Origin: Dehalococcoidia bacterium | GTDB lineage: Bacteria > Chloroflexota > Dehalococcoidia > Lucifugimonadales > CATOSD01 | Reading direction: 5' to 3' | Length of the DNA stretch: 64,000 nucleotides | NCBI GenBank assembly: GCA_965262385.1 | Contig: CBDHFB010000016.1 | Location: 3,510,032 to 3,574,031 of the forward strand | In this document: positions 1-4,414 of the stretch, piece by piece | Layout of the letters: each line of letters starts with the position of its first letter | Numbering within the stretch: the first letter of the stretch is position 1 | The notes under the pieces: generated by a model | The model's input: only the letters and a program-made list of their open reading frames with translations | Told to the model about the DNA's origin: nothing | The model's database searches: none | Position numbers and translations under genes: made by a program

Positions 1-129
1 AGTAATGGTGAAGGTTCTTTGATTTTGTCCAGTCTGGTGGACCAGCCCTGAGACCGGTTATAACGGCCTATGGTAGTTATGAATTCAGTCTCGTTAGGCC
101 GAATAATGTGGGCTGTGTAAGACTGAATT
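1..129 (+). pseudogene. Decayed 3' end of a large serine recombinase gene, split by the IS1182-family element at 130-4379 (last codons continue at 4384-4414)
   Basis: Codon-by-codon DNA match of 104-129 (taa tgt ggg ctg tgt aag act gaa tt) to the minus-strand reading of 13364-13389 (tat ggt ggg cct gca cgt acc gag tt). Shared gttatgaattc at 76-86 and 13397-13407 (rc). In-frame TAA at 104-106 and an indel upstream. Window starts inside it. Confidence 0.4.
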
Positions 130-151
130 GAGCCTGATGCTCCTATAGATG

Positions 152-1225
152 TCAAGGAGTGCTGTGGGATAGGGCTAAGTTCGGTAGGACGGAGAAGACC
201 TCGCGAGCGACATAGCGTTTGAGGCAGCGGATCACCTCAGCCTTGCTCATTCCCTCGGTGGTGCGACGACGCATGTATGCCTGGGTCCGCTCATCATGAC
301 GAGGTCTGACGACAACAATGCGATGGAGTGCCGCGTTGGCCTGGCGGTGGCCGCCTCGGTTGAGCCGATGCCTGGTGGTCTTGCCGGAGGAAGCAGGGAT
401 GGGATTGACACCGCACAGGGAGGCGAAGGCAGCCTCGGAGTGGAGGCGGTCCGGGTTACTCCCGGCAGCAATGAGGAGGGTCGCCGCCGTGTCTGGTCCT
501 ATGCCGAAGCCATCCACCAGGGCTGGGGCTGCCGTCCGTGTGAGTCGTTGGATCTCGGCCTCCAGGTCCTTTATCTCATTACCGAGTTGACGGTAGCGAC
601 GGGCAAGGGAGCGAAGAGCATACTTGGCCGCCGCGGTGGGACCCTCCAGACGACCAGGCCGGAAGCTCTTGGATCGGGTGACAAGGGCAGCAGCGGTGAG
701 GCCAGTGAGGTGCTCACGAAGCCGGGCCGGAGCCGTGACAACCAGAGCCTTCATCTGGTTGATTGCCTGGGTGCGAGCCTTGACGGCCGAGTCCTTGGTG
801 CTCTTGAACATACGGATCATTTCGACTTCACCCTCACCTGACTTGGGAGTGGCATCGGCTACTCCGGCAAGCACGGCACGCGCTGCCATCTCCGCATCAG
901 TGGAATCGCTCTTCCCCTTCCGATAGCGGGTTGACCGGTCGGGCCGGTTGACCTCCACTACGGTATGGCCCCTACTGGTCAGGAATCGGGCGACTCCGGC
1001 ACCGTAGGAACCGGTGCCTTCAATCCCGAAGGCATGAATCTCTCCCAGGCCCCGGGACCACCGTTCGAGCTCCTCATACCCATGGGTGGTCGCCACTGTG
1101 TGAAGCTCCCCCAGGCGGACCCCCTGACGGTCAATGGCCACCGCCACATGCTCATCCTGGTGGGTGTCGACTCCGACGACCAGCTCAACACCACGACTAC
1201 CTTCATGACCGACGACTCCTGTCAT
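152..1225 (-). CDS. IS110 family transposase/recombinase (357 aa)
   Basis: N-terminal DEDD-type motifs (VVGVDTHQDEH, FGIEGTGSYG). C-terminal IS116/IS110/IS902-type block (GIGPDTAATLLIAAG...LCGVNPIPASSGK...RLNRGGHRQANAALH). SD-like ggaggt upstream of the ATG. Confidence 0.9.
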   Translation of the reverse strand: MTGVVGHEGSRGVELVVGVDTHQDEHVAVAIDRQGVRLGELHTVATTHGYEELERWSRGLGEIHAFGIEGTGSYGAGVARFLTSRGHTVVEVNRPDRSTRYRKGKSDSTDAEMAARAVLAGVADATPKSGEGEVEMIRMFKSTKDSAVKARTQAINQMKALVVTAPARLREHLTGLTAAALVTRSKSFRPGRLEGPTAAAKYALRSLARRYRQLGNEIKDLEAEIQRLTRTAAPALVDGFGIGPDTAATLLIAAGSNPDRLHSEAAFASLCGVNPIPASSGKTTRHRLNRGGHRQANAALHRIVVVRPRHDERTQAYMRRRTTEGMSKAEVIRCLKRYVAREVFSVLPNLALSHSTP

Positions 1226-1437
1226 TTCTACCTCCCGGAGGATTGCGCGCCGGCCAGGTGAGCGGACAAAAGACTGCGATGGGGCGTGGGGCCAGGCTCC
1301 TATAAGGTCACTGCTCGCCTTGCCAAAGGCACTTCGGGTGCCACCTCGACTCGAGTCGACAGATCAGGCTGAAGGCATGATGCCAGTCTCAGAAAGGGTC
1401 AGGCCCGAGCCGAGGTGGCCCGGGATTCATCATCGCA
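1226..1437 (-). ncRNA. Candidate IS110 bridge (guide) RNA region, copy A
   Basis: Identical (rc) to 3072-3283. See that feature. Confidence 0.35.
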
Positions 1438-1528
1438 GTCTCAGAAGGGGATTTGTAGACAGGTTCACTCTGACACGAGGGTCTGATTTTAGACGATAGG
1501 GTGAAGGGTCGCCGTCAATTGCCTCAGT

Positions 1529-3010: not shown

Positions 3011-3071
3011 CTTGATGTCGCTTCAAACGTACACCTGACCCACACTCAATGCCAACCCAGACTTCTGAGAC

Positions 3072-3283
3072 TGCGATGATGAATCCCGGGCCACCTCGGC
3101 TCGGGCCTGACCCTTTCTGAGACTGGCATCATGCCTTCAGCCTGATCTGTCGACTCGAGTCGAGGTGGCACCCGAAGTGCCTTTGGCAAGGCGAGCAGTG
3201 ACCTTATAGGAGCCTGGCCCCACGCCCCATCGCAGTCTTTTGTCCGCTCACCTGGCCGGCGCGCAATCCTCCGGGAGGTAGAA
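3072..3283 (+). ncRNA. Candidate IS110 bridge (guide) RNA in the 212-nt leader upstream of the transposase
   Basis: Stem ccacctcg (3091-3098) / cgaggtgg (3161-3168) encloses two guide-like strings. The first is ttctgagactg (3115-3125), identical to the left junction 3063-3073. The second is agcctgat (3139-3146), the rc of the right junction atcaggct 4371-4378. In addition, catcgcagtc (3228-3237) is the rc of gactgcgatg 3069-3078. Position and guide-like matches fit published IS110-group bridge RNAs. No covariance model was run. Confidence 0.4.
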
Positions 3284-4357
3284 ATGACAGGAGTCGTCGG
3301 TCATGAAGGTAGTCGTGGTGTTGAGCTGGTCGTCGGAGTCGACACCCACCAGGATGAGCATGTGGCGGTGGCCATTGACCGTCAGGGGGTCCGCCTGGGG
3401 GAGCTTCACACAGTGGCGACCACCCATGGGTATGAGGAGCTCGAACGGTGGTCCCGGGGCCTGGGAGAGATTCATGCCTTCGGGATTGAAGGCACCGGTT
3501 CCTACGGTGCCGGAGTCGCCCGATTCCTGACCAGTAGGGGCCATACCGTAGTGGAGGTCAACCGGCCCGACCGGTCAACCCGCTATCGGAAGGGGAAGAG
3601 CGATTCCACTGATGCGGAGATGGCAGCGCGTGCCGTGCTTGCCGGAGTAGCCGATGCCACTCCCAAGTCAGGTGAGGGTGAAGTCGAAATGATCCGTATG
3701 TTCAAGAGCACCAAGGACTCGGCCGTCAAGGCTCGCACCCAGGCAATCAACCAGATGAAGGCTCTGGTTGTCACGGCTCCGGCCCGGCTTCGTGAGCACC
3801 TCACTGGCCTCACCGCTGCTGCCCTTGTCACCCGGTCCAAGAGCTTCCGGCCTGGTCGTCTGGAGGGTCCCACCGCGGCGGCCAAGTATGCTCTTCGCTC
3901 CCTTGCCCGTCGCTACCGTCAACTCGGTAATGAGATAAAGGACCTGGAGGCCGAGATCCAACGACTCACACGGACGGCAGCCCCAGCCCTGGTGGATGGC
4001 TTCGGCATAGGACCAGACACGGCGGCGACCCTCCTCATTGCTGCCGGGAGTAACCCGGACCGCCTCCACTCCGAGGCTGCCTTCGCCTCCCTGTGCGGTG
4101 TCAATCCCATCCCTGCTTCCTCCGGCAAGACCACCAGGCATCGGCTCAACCGAGGCGGCCACCGCCAGGCCAACGCGGCACTCCATCGCATTGTTGTCGT
4201 CAGACCTCGTCATGATGAGCGGACCCAGGCATACATGCGTCGTCGCACCACCGAGGGAATGAGCAAGGCTGAGGTGATCCGCTGCCTCAAACGCTATGTC
4301 GCTCGCGAGGTCTTCTCCGTCCTACCGAACTCAGCCCTATCCCACAGCACTCCTTGA
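3284..4357 (+). CDS. IS110 family transposase/recombinase (357 aa)
   Basis: Same protein as 152-1225 with one substitution near the C-terminus. Confidence 0.9.
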   Translation: MTGVVGHEGSRGVELVVGVDTHQDEHVAVAIDRQGVRLGELHTVATTHGYEELERWSRGLGEIHAFGIEGTGSYGAGVARFLTSRGHTVVEVNRPDRSTRYRKGKSDSTDAEMAARAVLAGVADATPKSGEGEVEMIRMFKSTKDSAVKARTQAINQMKALVVTAPARLREHLTGLTAAALVTRSKSFRPGRLEGPTAAAKYALRSLARRYRQLGNEIKDLEAEIQRLTRTAAPALVDGFGIGPDTAATLLIAAGSNPDRLHSEAAFASLCGVNPIPASSGKTTRHRLNRGGHRQANAALHRIVVVRPRHDERTQAYMRRRTTEGMSKAEVIRCLKRYVAREVFSVLPNSALSHSTP

Positions 4358-4383
4358 CATCTATAGGAGCATCAGGCTCAATT

Positions 4384-4414
4384 GCGAACTTTTCGCTGGG
4401 AGGTCCTGATATGA
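4384..4414 (+). pseudogene. Last 10 codons plus stop of the serine recombinase remnant that starts at 1-129
   Basis: g cga act ttt cgc tgg gag gtc ctg ata tga gives (L)RTFRWEVLI*. The same terminus is found at 11649-11679 (minus) and, in variant form, at 44535-44570 (minus). Confidence 0.45.

What the first reader, a model, noticed from the sequence alone, without database searches (positions are those of the whole stretch)
1..4414. Three-level nested insertion: serine-recombinase 3' end <- IS1182-family element <- two IS110-family elements
Reading outward from the IS1182 transposase gene (1529-3010), both arms are the same. Each arm has the inner repeat ...cttctgagac, then a 1302-bp IS110-family element (136-1437 and 3072-4373). 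These two copies are reverse complements of each other, and each transposase points outward. Next come the last 6 bp of the IS1182 repeat (gagcct / aggctc), then AATT (126-129, 4380-4383). Removing both IS110 copies, the IS1182 and one AATT joins 129 to 4384 and restores ...K T E L R T F R W E V L I stop. That is the C-terminus of the serine recombinase family seen elsewhere in the window. Three different site-specific elements are therefore stacked inside one another. The two 1.3-kb arms form a near-perfect inverted repeat around only 1.6 kb.
Basis: seen in the sequence. Interest (0 to 1): 0.75.

Follow-up and report, generated by a model that had tools for sequence, protein, structure and literature searches.

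The report
IS110 copies splitting both IS1182 ends
One jumping gene (IS1182 family) has had both of its end repeats hit, at the same base, by two copies of a second, RNA-guided jumping gene (IS110 family) whose guide RNA matches that end repeat; the structure is real and tidy, but it is a known kind of event.

Summary
Arms 126-1447 and 3062-4383 form a 1322-nt inverted repeat with two mismatches. Each arm holds a 1302-bp IS110-family element, 136-1437 (-) and 3072-4373 (+). Each element sits 6 bp from the tip of the 16-bp terminal repeat of a 1646-bp IS1182-family element. A second, uninterrupted IS1182 copy (11684-13363) supplies the empty site, GAGCCT|GTCTCA. An unoccupied IS1182 target in a related genome (L024) confirms the 4-bp AATT duplication.

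The mechanism is bridge-RNA targeting. The 5' non-coding end of the IS110 element folds into two stem-loops. The loop segments UUUCUGAGAC and AGCCUG match the IS1182 repeat, CTTCTGAGAC|AGGCT, at 15 of 16 positions plus one wobble. Across 76 related loci from Dehalococcoidia genomes, these segments change together with the flanking DNA. Because the target lies in an inverted repeat, both ends are hit in mirror orientation. At least three other loci show the same double hit.

One caveat: the recombinase remnant at 1-125 is decayed. Only the last 14 codons match the intact paralogue.

This is a new member of a known kind (compare IS4321/IS5075 in Tn21 repeats). Side finding: sister subfamilies target other IS families, and some copies sit in a sister subfamily's sites. 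That suggests guide RNAs are used in trans.

The parts
1..125 (+). Decayed 3' region of a large serine recombinase gene, or of a recombinase-associated module, cut by the window edge. Contains a hairpin, CAGTCT...AGACTG (85-124).
   Evidence: Weak local similarity, with indels, to the 3' coding region of the intact paralogue. There are stops in the KTEL frame.
126..129 (.). AATT, left copy of the IS1182 target-site duplication.
   Evidence: The empty target in L024 has a single AATT. The matching copy is at 4380-4383.
130..135 (.). Outer 6 bp (GAGCCT) of one IS1182 terminal repeat, cut off from the rest by IS110 copy A.
   Evidence: Uninterrupted repeat GAGCCTGTCTCA in copy 2.
136..1437 (-). 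IS110-family element, copy A (1302 bp).
   Evidence: 99.85% identical to copy B. Ends are TGCGATGAT...TATAGGAGCATC, as in 76 related loci.
152..1225 (-). IS110 recombinase gene, copy A (357 aa).
1239..1421 (-). Predicted bridge RNA of copy A (LTG 1386-1395, RTG 1365-1370).
   Evidence: Mirror image of copy B.
1438..3071 (-). IS1182-family element body. The inner 10 bp of each terminal repeat lie at 1438-1447 and 3062-3071. The reconstituted element is 1646 bp with 16-bp perfect terminal repeats.
   Evidence: 99.0% identical to copy 2 over 1547 bp.
1529..3010 (-). IS1182-family transposase gene (493 aa, intact).
   Evidence: NF033551, 370 bits. PF13751, PF05598, PF01609.
3072..4373 (+). IS110-family element, copy B (1302 bp).
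3088..3270 (+). Predicted bridge RNA. Target-binding stem-loop 3090-3169, with LTG 3114-3123 (UUUCUGAGAC), RTG 3139-3144 (AGCCUG) and handshake AU 3145-3146. Donor-binding stem-loop with LDG 3205-3213 (UAUAGGAGC), RDG 3228-3235 (CAUCGCAG) and handshake UC 3236-3237.
   Evidence: Single-sequence fold. Consensus structure with 6 compensatory pairs. Guide/flank covariation. Coordinates.
3284..4357 (+). IS110 recombinase gene, copy B (357 aa). DEDD and Ser motif positions align with IS621.
4354..4359 (+). TTGACA in the right end. In a circle junction it would lie 17 nt upstream of TGcGATGAT (3072-3080), giving a sigma-70-like promoter for the bridge RNA.
   Evidence: Read from the sequence. Inference by analogy with IS621.
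4374..4379 (.). Outer 6 bp (AGGCTC) of the other IS1182 terminal repeat.
4380..4383 (.). AATT, right copy of the IS1182 target-site duplication.
4384..4414 (+). Right half of the IS1182 target module: hairpin GCGAA-CTT-TTCGC, then TGGGAGGTCC. It reads RTFRWEVLI-stop in the frame of the recombinase paralogue.
11684..13363 (+). Comparator: uninterrupted IS1182 copy 2 (1680 bp; tnp 11751-13232). Flanked by AATT (11680-11683) and AACT (13364-13367). Its two unoccupied IS110 sites each carry one mismatch to the guide.
13368..15042 (-). Comparator: large serine recombinase gene interrupted 10 codons before its stop by IS1182 copy 2.
44543..44590 (-). Comparator: third, unoccupied copy of the IS1182 target module (TACT in the 4-bp slot).

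Best explanation
Three sequential site-specific insertions.

(1) An IS1182-family element (1646 bp, 16-bp terminal inverted repeats) inserted with a 4-bp AATT duplication. Its target was a conserved ~45-bp hairpin-slot-hairpin module, which forms the last codons of a large serine recombinase gene family.

(2, 3) Two copies of a 1302-bp IS110-family element then inserted, one into each IS1182 terminal repeat. Both entered between nt 6 and 7 from the tip and without any duplication.

The IS110 recombinase is directed by a bridge RNA encoded in its own 5' non-coding end. [quoted passage not shown] The donor loop matches the element's own ends. The target sequence is part of an inverted repeat, so it exists once at each IS1182 end in opposite orientation. 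Insertion orientation is fixed relative to the target, so the two IS110 copies end up as mirror images with their recombinase genes pointing outward.

Shown: the boundaries, the empty sites, the family assignments, guide-target complementarity and covariation, and recurrence of the structure. Inferred: that the RNA is made and used; that the split repeats immobilise this IS1182 copy (its transposase gene is intact) until the IS110 copies excise; and that the 1.3-kb inverted arms can flip the 1.6-kb core by homologous recombination.
For: Boundaries and empty sites. Family assignments; the IS621 active-site motifs align.

Bridge-RNA anatomy: two stem-loops in the 212-nt left end. In the consensus fold of 14 diverse relatives, 6 of 52 pairs keep pairing through changes on both sides. 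The segments flanking the guides are invariant (GACCC, GACUGGC, AUGCCUUC, GAUCUGUCG), while the guide segments themselves vary.

Guide-target match: for the window copies, 15 Watson-Crick pairs plus 1 G.U out of 16. Across the 39 distinct guide/flank combinations parsed from the related loci, cognate pairs score 13-16 of 16. There are at least five guide classes, each with its own flank: TTCTGAGAC|AGGCT, GTAGTGGGAC|ACGAG, TTCGAGGAC|CGGTT, CAAACGGAC|ATTTT and GATGTGAC|ATTAT. Some mismatches are G.U-compatible.

The guide definitions and the handshake rule are taken from PMC11208160 and PMC11208158. The RTG is followed by AU, which equals the last 2 nt of the right end. The RDG is followed by UC, which is complementary to the GA that precedes the shared C in every target.

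Same cut position in other loci: 13 loci with an IS1182 transposase next to the left end and 5 with ~175-bp MITE derivatives.

Double occupancy of both repeats recurs in L020 (another MAG), L010 and L037.

IS1182 target: the empty site in L024, the TACT duplication in L027, and 3 module copies in the window.
Against: No expression or activity data are available.

The single-sequence fold is no more stable than shuffled sequence (z = -0.58), and Rfam has no model that matches.

Donor and target share only one nucleotide (C), not the CT dinucleotide core of IS621. The left donor guide pairs 3 nt away from the junction. So the geometry differs in detail from the solved system.

About 16 related copies sit in sites that do not match their own guides. 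This needs an extra assumption: guide RNA used in trans.

The two arms differ at only 2 of 1302 positions, and reads were not available, so a mis-assembly cannot be formally excluded.
Confidence: 0.85

Rival explanations
1. Assembly artefact: a single IS110 copy placed twice, or a long-read fold-back chimera that created the mirror arms.
For: The arms are 99.85% identical and lie at the edge of the window. The related genomes are long-read MAGs rich in near-identical IS copies.
Against: There are two fixed differences between the arms. Symmetry stops exactly at the IS1182 tips plus AATT, and the outer flanks and the 1.6-kb core are not palindromic. Each junction is the precise product expected from the empty site. 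The same double-occupied architecture occurs at non-orthologous loci in two other assemblies: L020, L010 and L037.
Confidence: 0.04
2. One IS110 insertion only. The second copy arose by copying between the two IS1182 repeats (gene conversion or repair using the other end as template), not by a second RNA-guided insertion.
For: The two copies are closer to each other (2 differences) than to the copies in the sampled genomes (about 1% different).
Against: Homology outside the insert is only 6 + 10 bp on each side, which is too short for efficient conversion. The window's own genome was not among the sampled loci, so sister copies there could be equally close. In L010 the two repeats of one IS1182 carry IS110 copies of different subfamilies (96% and 83% identical to the query), which must be independent insertions.
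Confidence: 0.06
3. The IS110 recombinase protein recognises the IS1182 repeat directly, as a DNA-binding specificity. The matches to the non-coding end are then incidental.
For: The GAC just left of every insertion and the element ends are invariant across all subfamilies. That part of the site could be read by protein.
Against: Subfamilies that differ in the two loop segments use correspondingly different targets, with G.U-compatible exceptions. Bridge-RNA guidance is established experimentally for this family. NCBIfam names the family as RNA-guided.
Confidence: 0.03
4. The unit recombinase-3'-end + IS1182 was duplicated as a block. On this reading IS1182 has no preference for this site.
For: Both IS1182 copies in the window lie at the same codon of a recombinase-like 3' end, in the same orientation.
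Against: The IS copies are 99% identical, but the flanks are 87% identical on one side and barely alignable on the other. The two copies are different IS1182 variants: the last 87 bp against 127 bp at one end are unrelated, and each variant is found elsewhere. A MITE sits in the same slot with another 4-bp duplication (L027), and empty modules exist (L024; 44543-44590).
Confidence: 0.1

Closest known systems
IS621 / IS110-group bridge-RNA recombinases (Durrant et al. 2024, PMC11208160; Hiraizumi et al. 2024, PMC11208158)
   Same: A DEDD/RuvC-like domain plus a Tnp domain with the Ser motif. No terminal inverted repeats and no target duplication. The non-coding region lies 5' of the gene. There are two stem-loops whose internal loops carry a left guide identical to the top strand and a right guide complementary to it, followed by 2-nt handshake positions complementary to the partner DNA. 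A -35 box in the right end would join a -10 in the left end on circle formation.
   Different: Only about 47 bits of sequence similarity to IS621. The overlap shared between donor and target is a single C (GAC against ATC), not a CT dinucleotide. The left donor guide is offset by 3 nt from the junction. The right target guide is 6 nt long. The host is Dehalococcoidia (Chloroflexota). Nothing has been tested experimentally.
IS4321 / IS5075 (IS1111 group) in the 38-bp terminal repeats of Tn21-family transposons (Partridge & Hall 2003, cited in PMC11187229)
   Same: A DEDD-transposase IS that inserts at one fixed position and in one orientation within the terminal inverted repeat of another transposable element, so either or both ends can be occupied.
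   Different: Those are IS1111-type elements, with sub-terminal inverted repeats and the guide RNA region downstream of the gene. This element is IS110-type: 212 nt of non-coding sequence upstream and 16 nt downstream of the stop. The prey here is an IS1182-family IS and its MITEs, not a Tn3-family transposon.
REP-targeting IS110 members such as ISPpu9 / ISPpu10 in Pseudomonas putida (PMC12288879; bioRxiv 10.64898/2026.03.19.712850; seen)
   Same: IS110 elements whose guide is set to a multi-copy genomic repeat, which gives many safe landing sites.
   Different: The repeat targeted here belongs to another mobile element rather than to a host REP sequence.

Membership tests
IS110 family (IS110 group, bridge-RNA-guided) | Recombinase with an N-terminal DEDD (RuvC-like) domain and a C-terminal Tnp domain carrying the catalytic Ser. 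| tested here: met
   PF01548 (8.7e-20) and PF02371 (2.6e-17). NF033542 at 180 bits against a cutoff of 140. The alignment to IS621 keeps GxDT, IE.TG.Y, K.D..DA and the SG motif.
IS110 family (IS110 group, bridge-RNA-guided) | No terminal inverted repeats and no target-site duplication; sequence-specific insertion. | tested here: met
   Ends are TGCGATGATG / TATAGGAGCATC. Comparison with the empty site shows no added bases and a 1-nt overlap.
IS110 family (IS110 group, bridge-RNA-guided) | A long non-coding end 5' of the gene that folds into two stem-loops with internal loops. | tested here: met
   212-nt left end, two stem-loops. Consensus structure over 14 relatives, with 6 compensatory pairs. 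There is no Rfam model to compare with.
IS110 family (IS110 group, bridge-RNA-guided) | Loop guides complementary to the target flanks and to the element's own ends, covarying with the target across relatives. | tested here: met
   15 Watson-Crick + 1 G.U of 16 for the window copies. 13-16 of 16 for cognate pairs in at least five guide classes. Own-end matches: TATAGGAGC and CATCGCAG.
IS110 family (IS110 group, bridge-RNA-guided) | A dinucleotide core shared by donor and target. | tested here: not met
   All junctions read GAC|... and ...ATC|, so only one C is shared. This is a variant detail of the mechanism, not grounds for exclusion from the family.
IS110 family (IS110 group, bridge-RNA-guided) | A circular intermediate with a promoter formed at the junction; RNA-dependent recombination activity. 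| not testable with these tools
   Sequence only: TTGACA-N17-GATGAT, preceded by TG, would form at a circle junction.
IS1111 group (IS4321/IS5075-like) | Sub-terminal inverted repeats and the non-coding guide region downstream of the transposase gene. | tested here: not met
   Only 16 nt follow the stop codon. The non-coding region is upstream. No sub-terminal repeat pair was reported within the element.
IS1182 family | A DDE transposase matching the family model. | tested here: met
   NF033551 at 370 bits against a cutoff of 270. PF13751, PF05598, PF01609.
IS1182 family | Terminal inverted repeats and a short target-site duplication. | tested here: met
   16-bp perfect repeats after removing the IS110 copies. 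4-bp AATT on both sides, and a single AATT in the empty site of L024. TACT/TACT for a MITE in L027.
Large serine recombinase (as the interrupted host gene) | Resolvase catalytic domain + recombinase domain + zinc ribbon. | tested here: inconclusive
   Met for the paralogue interrupted by IS1182 copy 2 (PF00239, PF07508, PF13408). For the copy in the finding only 125 nt are in the window, and they carry stops and frameshifts.

The most novel reading that the evidence does not exclude
The window's element belongs to a radiating clade of Dehalococcoidia IS110 elements. All members keep the same donor ends and donor-binding loop, but they have re-set their target-binding loops to prey on different resident IS families: IS1182 repeats, two sites in an IS21 transposase gene, an IS256 gene and an ISNCY gene. 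Because the donor side is shared, bridge RNAs work in trans between subfamilies. At least 7 independent A-type insertions and 3-4 C-type insertions lie in sites that fit the D-type guide (12-15 of 16) and not their own guide (5-11 of 16). A D-like copy also sits in an A-type site. If true, a population of co-resident elements pools its guide repertoire. That would be a natural precedent for multiplexed bridge recombination and a new layer of IS-on-IS parasitism.
Probability: 0.5. Interest if true: 0.55.

Novelty: new member of a known kind. Interest (0 to 1): 0.35.

Why it matters
The nest itself is ordinary mobile-element biology. What it offers is an unusually clean natural illustration of bridge-RNA programming. 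The guide can be read straight off the sequence and matched to an inverted-repeat target, which explains the mirror-image architecture without further assumptions.

It also shows a route by which one IS can silence another, reversibly: the IS1182 repeats are split while its transposase gene stays intact.

The related loci form a compact natural data set. It has the same donor ends, at least five target specificities, G.U-tolerant mismatches, a 1-nt core and apparent use of guides in trans. This could inform the design rules for bridge recombinases.

Tried and rejected
1. Exact-protein look-ups of both IS110 recombinase variants found nothing on record.

2. Rfam gave no family for the non-coding end, either at gathering thresholds over the whole window or at E<=10 over 3040-3320. 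The latter returned only chance C/D-box hits on UGAUGA.

3. Single-sequence folding energy is not better than shuffles. Structure support therefore rests on the alignment.

4. I asked whether the IS1182 target module is a tRNA or tmRNA 3' end, as for Dehalococcoides genomic islands. ARAGORN finds no tRNA or tmRNA in the window, so this was rejected.

5. I first took L020's opposite IS1182 orientation as an independent insertion. I withdrew that, because L020 also has inverted IS110 copies in both repeats, and these could have flipped the core by homologous recombination.

6. My first coordinates for IS1182 copy 2 (11681-13366) were 3 nt off. They were corrected to 11684-13363.

7. Partridge & Hall 2003 could not be read. 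Only its title, as cited in PMC11187229, is used.

8. Keyword searches found no paper on natural cross-guidance between co-resident IS110 subfamilies. That is not proof that none exists.
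Full report
OBSERVATION

The inverted repeat is real. Arms 126-1447 and 3062-4383 are 1322 nt long and 1614 nt apart. A base-by-base comparison finds two mismatches (177/4332 and 674/3835). Complementarity ends abruptly at 125/4384 on the outside and 1448/3061 on the inside.

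Each arm carries a 357-aa ORF, at 152-1225 (-) and 3284-4357 (+), and both point outward. Between them lies a 493-aa ORF at 1529-3010 (-). The 357-aa protein is an IS110-family recombinase: PF01548 and PF02371, and NF033542 'IS110 family RNA-guided transposase' at 180 bits against a cutoff of 140. The 493-aa protein is an IS1182-family transposase: NF033551 at 370 bits against a cutoff of 270. Aligned to the solved IS621 protein, the DEDD and Ser motif positions are kept.

BOUNDARIES

The window holds a second IS1182 copy at 11684-13363, with its transposase gene at 11751-13232. It is 99.0% identical to the first over 1547 bp and is not interrupted. Its left end reads aatt-GAGCCT|GTCTCACAAG. 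In the finding, the same sequence is split at the bar by exactly 1302 bp.

Removing both inserts gives a 1646-bp IS1182 with 16-bp perfect terminal repeats, GAGCCTGTCTCAGAAG. Each IS110 sits between nt 6 and 7 of a repeat.

THE IS1182 TARGET

AATT flanks the reconstituted element on both sides. A related genome holds the unoccupied target, GCACGTACCG-AATT-GCGAACTTTTCGGTGGGAGGTCCTAATAT (L024). So AATT is a 4-bp target duplication and not part of the repeat. A ~175-bp MITE with IS1182-type ends sits in the same slot of another copy of this module, flanked by TACT on both sides (L027).

IS1182 copy 2 interrupts an intact three-domain large serine recombinase ORF (PF00239, PF07508, PF13408) after ...GGPARTEL. 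The remaining codons, RTFRWEVLI-stop, lie on the other side of the IS. The right flank of copy 1 (4380-4432) is 87% identical to that sequence.

However, upstream of KTEL the frame is closed (TAA at 107-109, with earlier stops). Positions 1-125 align to the recombinase 3' region only weakly, and with frame-shifting indels: local score 36 against a maximum of 31 in 300 shuffles. This is a decayed remnant or a divergent paralogue, and the window edge hides the rest.

A third copy of the module, at 44543-44590 (-), is unoccupied, has TACT in the slot and has no recombinase ORF beside it. It is not a tRNA or tmRNA end.

The two IS1182 copies are different variants: the 87 nt (copy 1) and 127 nt (copy 2) next to one repeat are unrelated. 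Their flanks are also far more diverged than the IS copies themselves. They are therefore independent insertions into the same site, which implies target preference rather than a block duplication.

WHY BOTH REPEATS ARE HIT: THE BRIDGE RNA

IS110 elements are guided by a bridge RNA. [quoted passage not shown] A second loop does the same for the element's own ends (PMC11208160). Two 'handshake' nucleotides after the right guides pair with the partner DNA after strand exchange (PMC11208158).

The 212-nt left end (3072-3283) folds into two stem-loops. In the first, an internal loop carries UUUCUGAGAC (3114-3123) on its 5' side and AGCCUG (3139-3144) followed by AU on its 3' side. The IS1182 repeat reads CTTCTGAGAC|AGGCT, which gives 15 Watson-Crick pairs plus one G.U out of 16. 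The AU is complementary to the AU-equivalent (AT) that precedes the final C of the element.

In the second stem-loop, UAUAGGAGC (3205-3213) equals the right end, and CAUCGCAG (3228-3235) is the complement of C+TGCGATG at the left end. It is followed by UC, which is complementary to the GA that precedes the shared C in every target.

COVARIATION

A scan of one genome per species found 155 stretches encoding relatives. The best 80 were kept, giving 76 distinct loci, all in Dehalococcoidia MAGs. All share the ends TGCGATGAT...TATAGGAGCATC, and all left flanks end in GAC.

In an alignment of 14 diverse left ends, the segments around the guides are invariant, while the 7 variable LTG positions and 5 RTG positions differ between subfamilies. 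The consensus fold keeps both stem-loops, with 6 of its 52 pairs maintained through changes on both sides.

The guide and flank combinations are as follows.

- A-type (the window's element): TTCTGAGAC / AGCCTG, with flank CTTCTGAGAC|AGGCT.
- C-type: GTAGTGGGAC / CTCGT, with flank GTAGTGGGAC|ACGAG (16 of 16).
- D-type: CTTCGAGGAC / AACCG, with flank TTCGAGGAC|CGGTT (15 of 16).
- E-type: ACAAATGGAC / AAAAT, with flank CAAACGGAC|ATTTT (the mismatch is a U.G).
- F-type: TTGATGTGAC / AAAAT, with flank GATGTGAC|ATTAT.
- Two further variants have TCCAGGAC flanks.

This is the signature of RNA-DNA guide pairing, not of protein recognition.

RECURRENCE

A-type copies lie at the same position of IS1182-type ends in about 20 different outer contexts. 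In 13 loci an IS1182 transposase gene lies next to the left end. Five are in ~175-bp MITEs. The IS110 left end always faces the IS1182 interior.

Both repeats of one IS1182 are occupied in L020 (another MAG) and in L010 and L037. In L010 the two occupants belong to different subfamilies. The mirror-image pair is therefore the expected outcome of an orientation-specific insertion into a target that exists once per inverted repeat, and it argues against a fold-back artefact. The two SNPs, the non-palindromic core and the non-palindromic outer flanks argue the same way. Reads were not available.

CONSEQUENCES (INFERRED)

The IS1182 transposase gene is intact, but each repeat is split 6 + 10 bp by 1.3 kb. 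This copy is probably immobile until the IS110 copies excise.

The two unoccupied repeats of copy 2 each differ from the guide by one base. Such variants are nevertheless occupied elsewhere (L012, L025), so this is not a strong explanation for their being empty.

The right end carries TTGACA (4354-4359). In a circle it would lie 17 nt upstream of TG-c-GATGAT at the left end. That is a junction promoter like the one described for IS621.

The 1.3-kb inverted arms can flip the 1.6-kb core by homologous recombination. This may explain the opposite IS1182 orientation in L020.

COMPARISON WITH WHAT IS KNOWN

The element passes the tests for an IS110-group bridge-RNA element. It fails those for the IS1111 group, because its non-coding region is upstream and only 16 nt follow the stop.

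The behaviour, a fixed-position and fixed-orientation insertion into the terminal repeat of another transposable element, is the behaviour reported for IS4321/IS5075 in Tn21-family repeats (title cited in PMC11187229).

There are differences of detail from IS621. Only a single C is shared between donor and target (GAC at every left junction, ATC at every right junction). The left donor guide pairs 3 nt away from the junction. Neither could be tested by covariation, because both are invariant in the clade.

SIDE FINDINGS

The sister subfamilies also target IS elements. C-type and D-type use two sites in an IS21-family transposase gene. E-type uses an IS256-family gene. F-type and L031 use an ISNCY-family gene.

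In MAG CBDCXW at least 11 A-type copies, which are A-type right up to both tips, and 4 C-type copies lie in sites that match the D-type guide at 12-15 of 16 positions. They match their own guide at only 5-11 of 16. Since all subfamilies share the donor ends and the donor loop, the simplest reading is that a co-resident D-type RNA was used in trans. I found no paper describing this in nature.

VERDICT

The mechanism is explained by known bridge-RNA biology. This is a new member of a known kind. The nest itself is of modest interest, and the clade-wide pattern of IS-on-IS targeting and apparent trans guidance is of somewhat more.

Noticed in passing
L001-L006, L008, L009, L013, L026, L029 (A-type); L037, L038, L043, L046 (C-type); all MAG CBDCXW01: IS110 copies sit in sites (TTCGAGGAC|CGGTT) that fit the guide of a different co-resident subfamily (D-type, 12-15 of 16). 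Their own guide fits only 5-11 of 16. The elements are of their own type right up to both tips. This suggests bridge RNAs act in trans between subfamilies that share donor ends.
   Followed up: partly
L040, L049, L063, L066, L031 (joined flanks): Sister IS110 subfamilies each target another IS: two sites in an IS21-family transposase gene, one in an IS256-family gene and one in an ISNCY-family gene. The whole clade preys on other mobile elements.
   Followed up: partly
all loci; window 3069-3073 and 4371-4375: Every left junction reads GAC|TGCG and every right junction reads ATC|. Donor and target therefore share only one C, not a dinucleotide core. The left donor guide matches the right end 3 nt away from the junction.
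   Followed up: partly
window 44543-44590 (-), 4384-4406 (+), 11657-11679 (-); also 85-124 and 13368-13398: The IS1182 target is a repeated ~45-bp module: hairpin, 4-bp slot, then hairpin GCGAA-CTT-TTCGC followed by TGGGAGGTCC. There are three copies in the window, one of them empty and without a recombinase gene beside it. The left hairpin keeps its pairing with a different sequence in copy 1 (CAGTCT/AGACTG) and copy 2 (CGGTACGT/ACGTACCG). The nature of the module is unknown.
   Followed up: partly
window 1448-1524 vs 13237-13347: The two IS1182 copies are 99% identical, except that the segment between the transposase stop and one terminal repeat is unrelated and differs in length. Each variant recurs in other genomes (L010/L028 against L020).
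   Followed up: partly
L060:2238-2310: A 51-nt partial IS110 left end stops exactly at the end of its left target guide (..CCCTTAGGGTGAC) and directly abuts a complete element. It may be an insertion or recombination at the DNA that encodes the guide.
   Followed up: no
L022 and L024 (MAG CBDDEH01, contigs 4 and 3): Identical left flanks (ammonium-transporter gene plus MITE) but different right flanks on either side of an IS110 copy. This looks like a rearrangement by recombination between IS110 copies, or an assembly join.
   Followed up: no
L034:3591-4640; L012:2-929; L037:844-2146: Deeper nests. In L034 the IS1182 whose repeat carries an IS110 is itself inserted in the coding region of another IS110 copy. 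In L012 and L037 a further IS110 sits inside the IS1182 transposase gene at TTCCGAAGAC|CGGTTCGACC. The equivalent site in the window (about 1708-1727) is unoccupied.
   Followed up: no
window 47346-48650: A third, distant IS1182-family transposase ORF (47390-48580, 26% identical) has a repeat-like TTCTCAGACGGGCT at 47346-47359, which carries two mismatches to the IS110 guide. It is unoccupied.
   Followed up: no
window 5610-6791; 5455-5796 vs 9998-10777; 24410-44197; 63753-63998: An IS1380-family transposase gene (393 aa). Two ORFs share a repeated segment (..GQADQDGRPSGAA..VGLSSMRFHP..). A 6595-aa ORF. A third large serine recombinase paralogue fragment lies at the window's far end (46% identical over 83 aa).
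   Followed up: no
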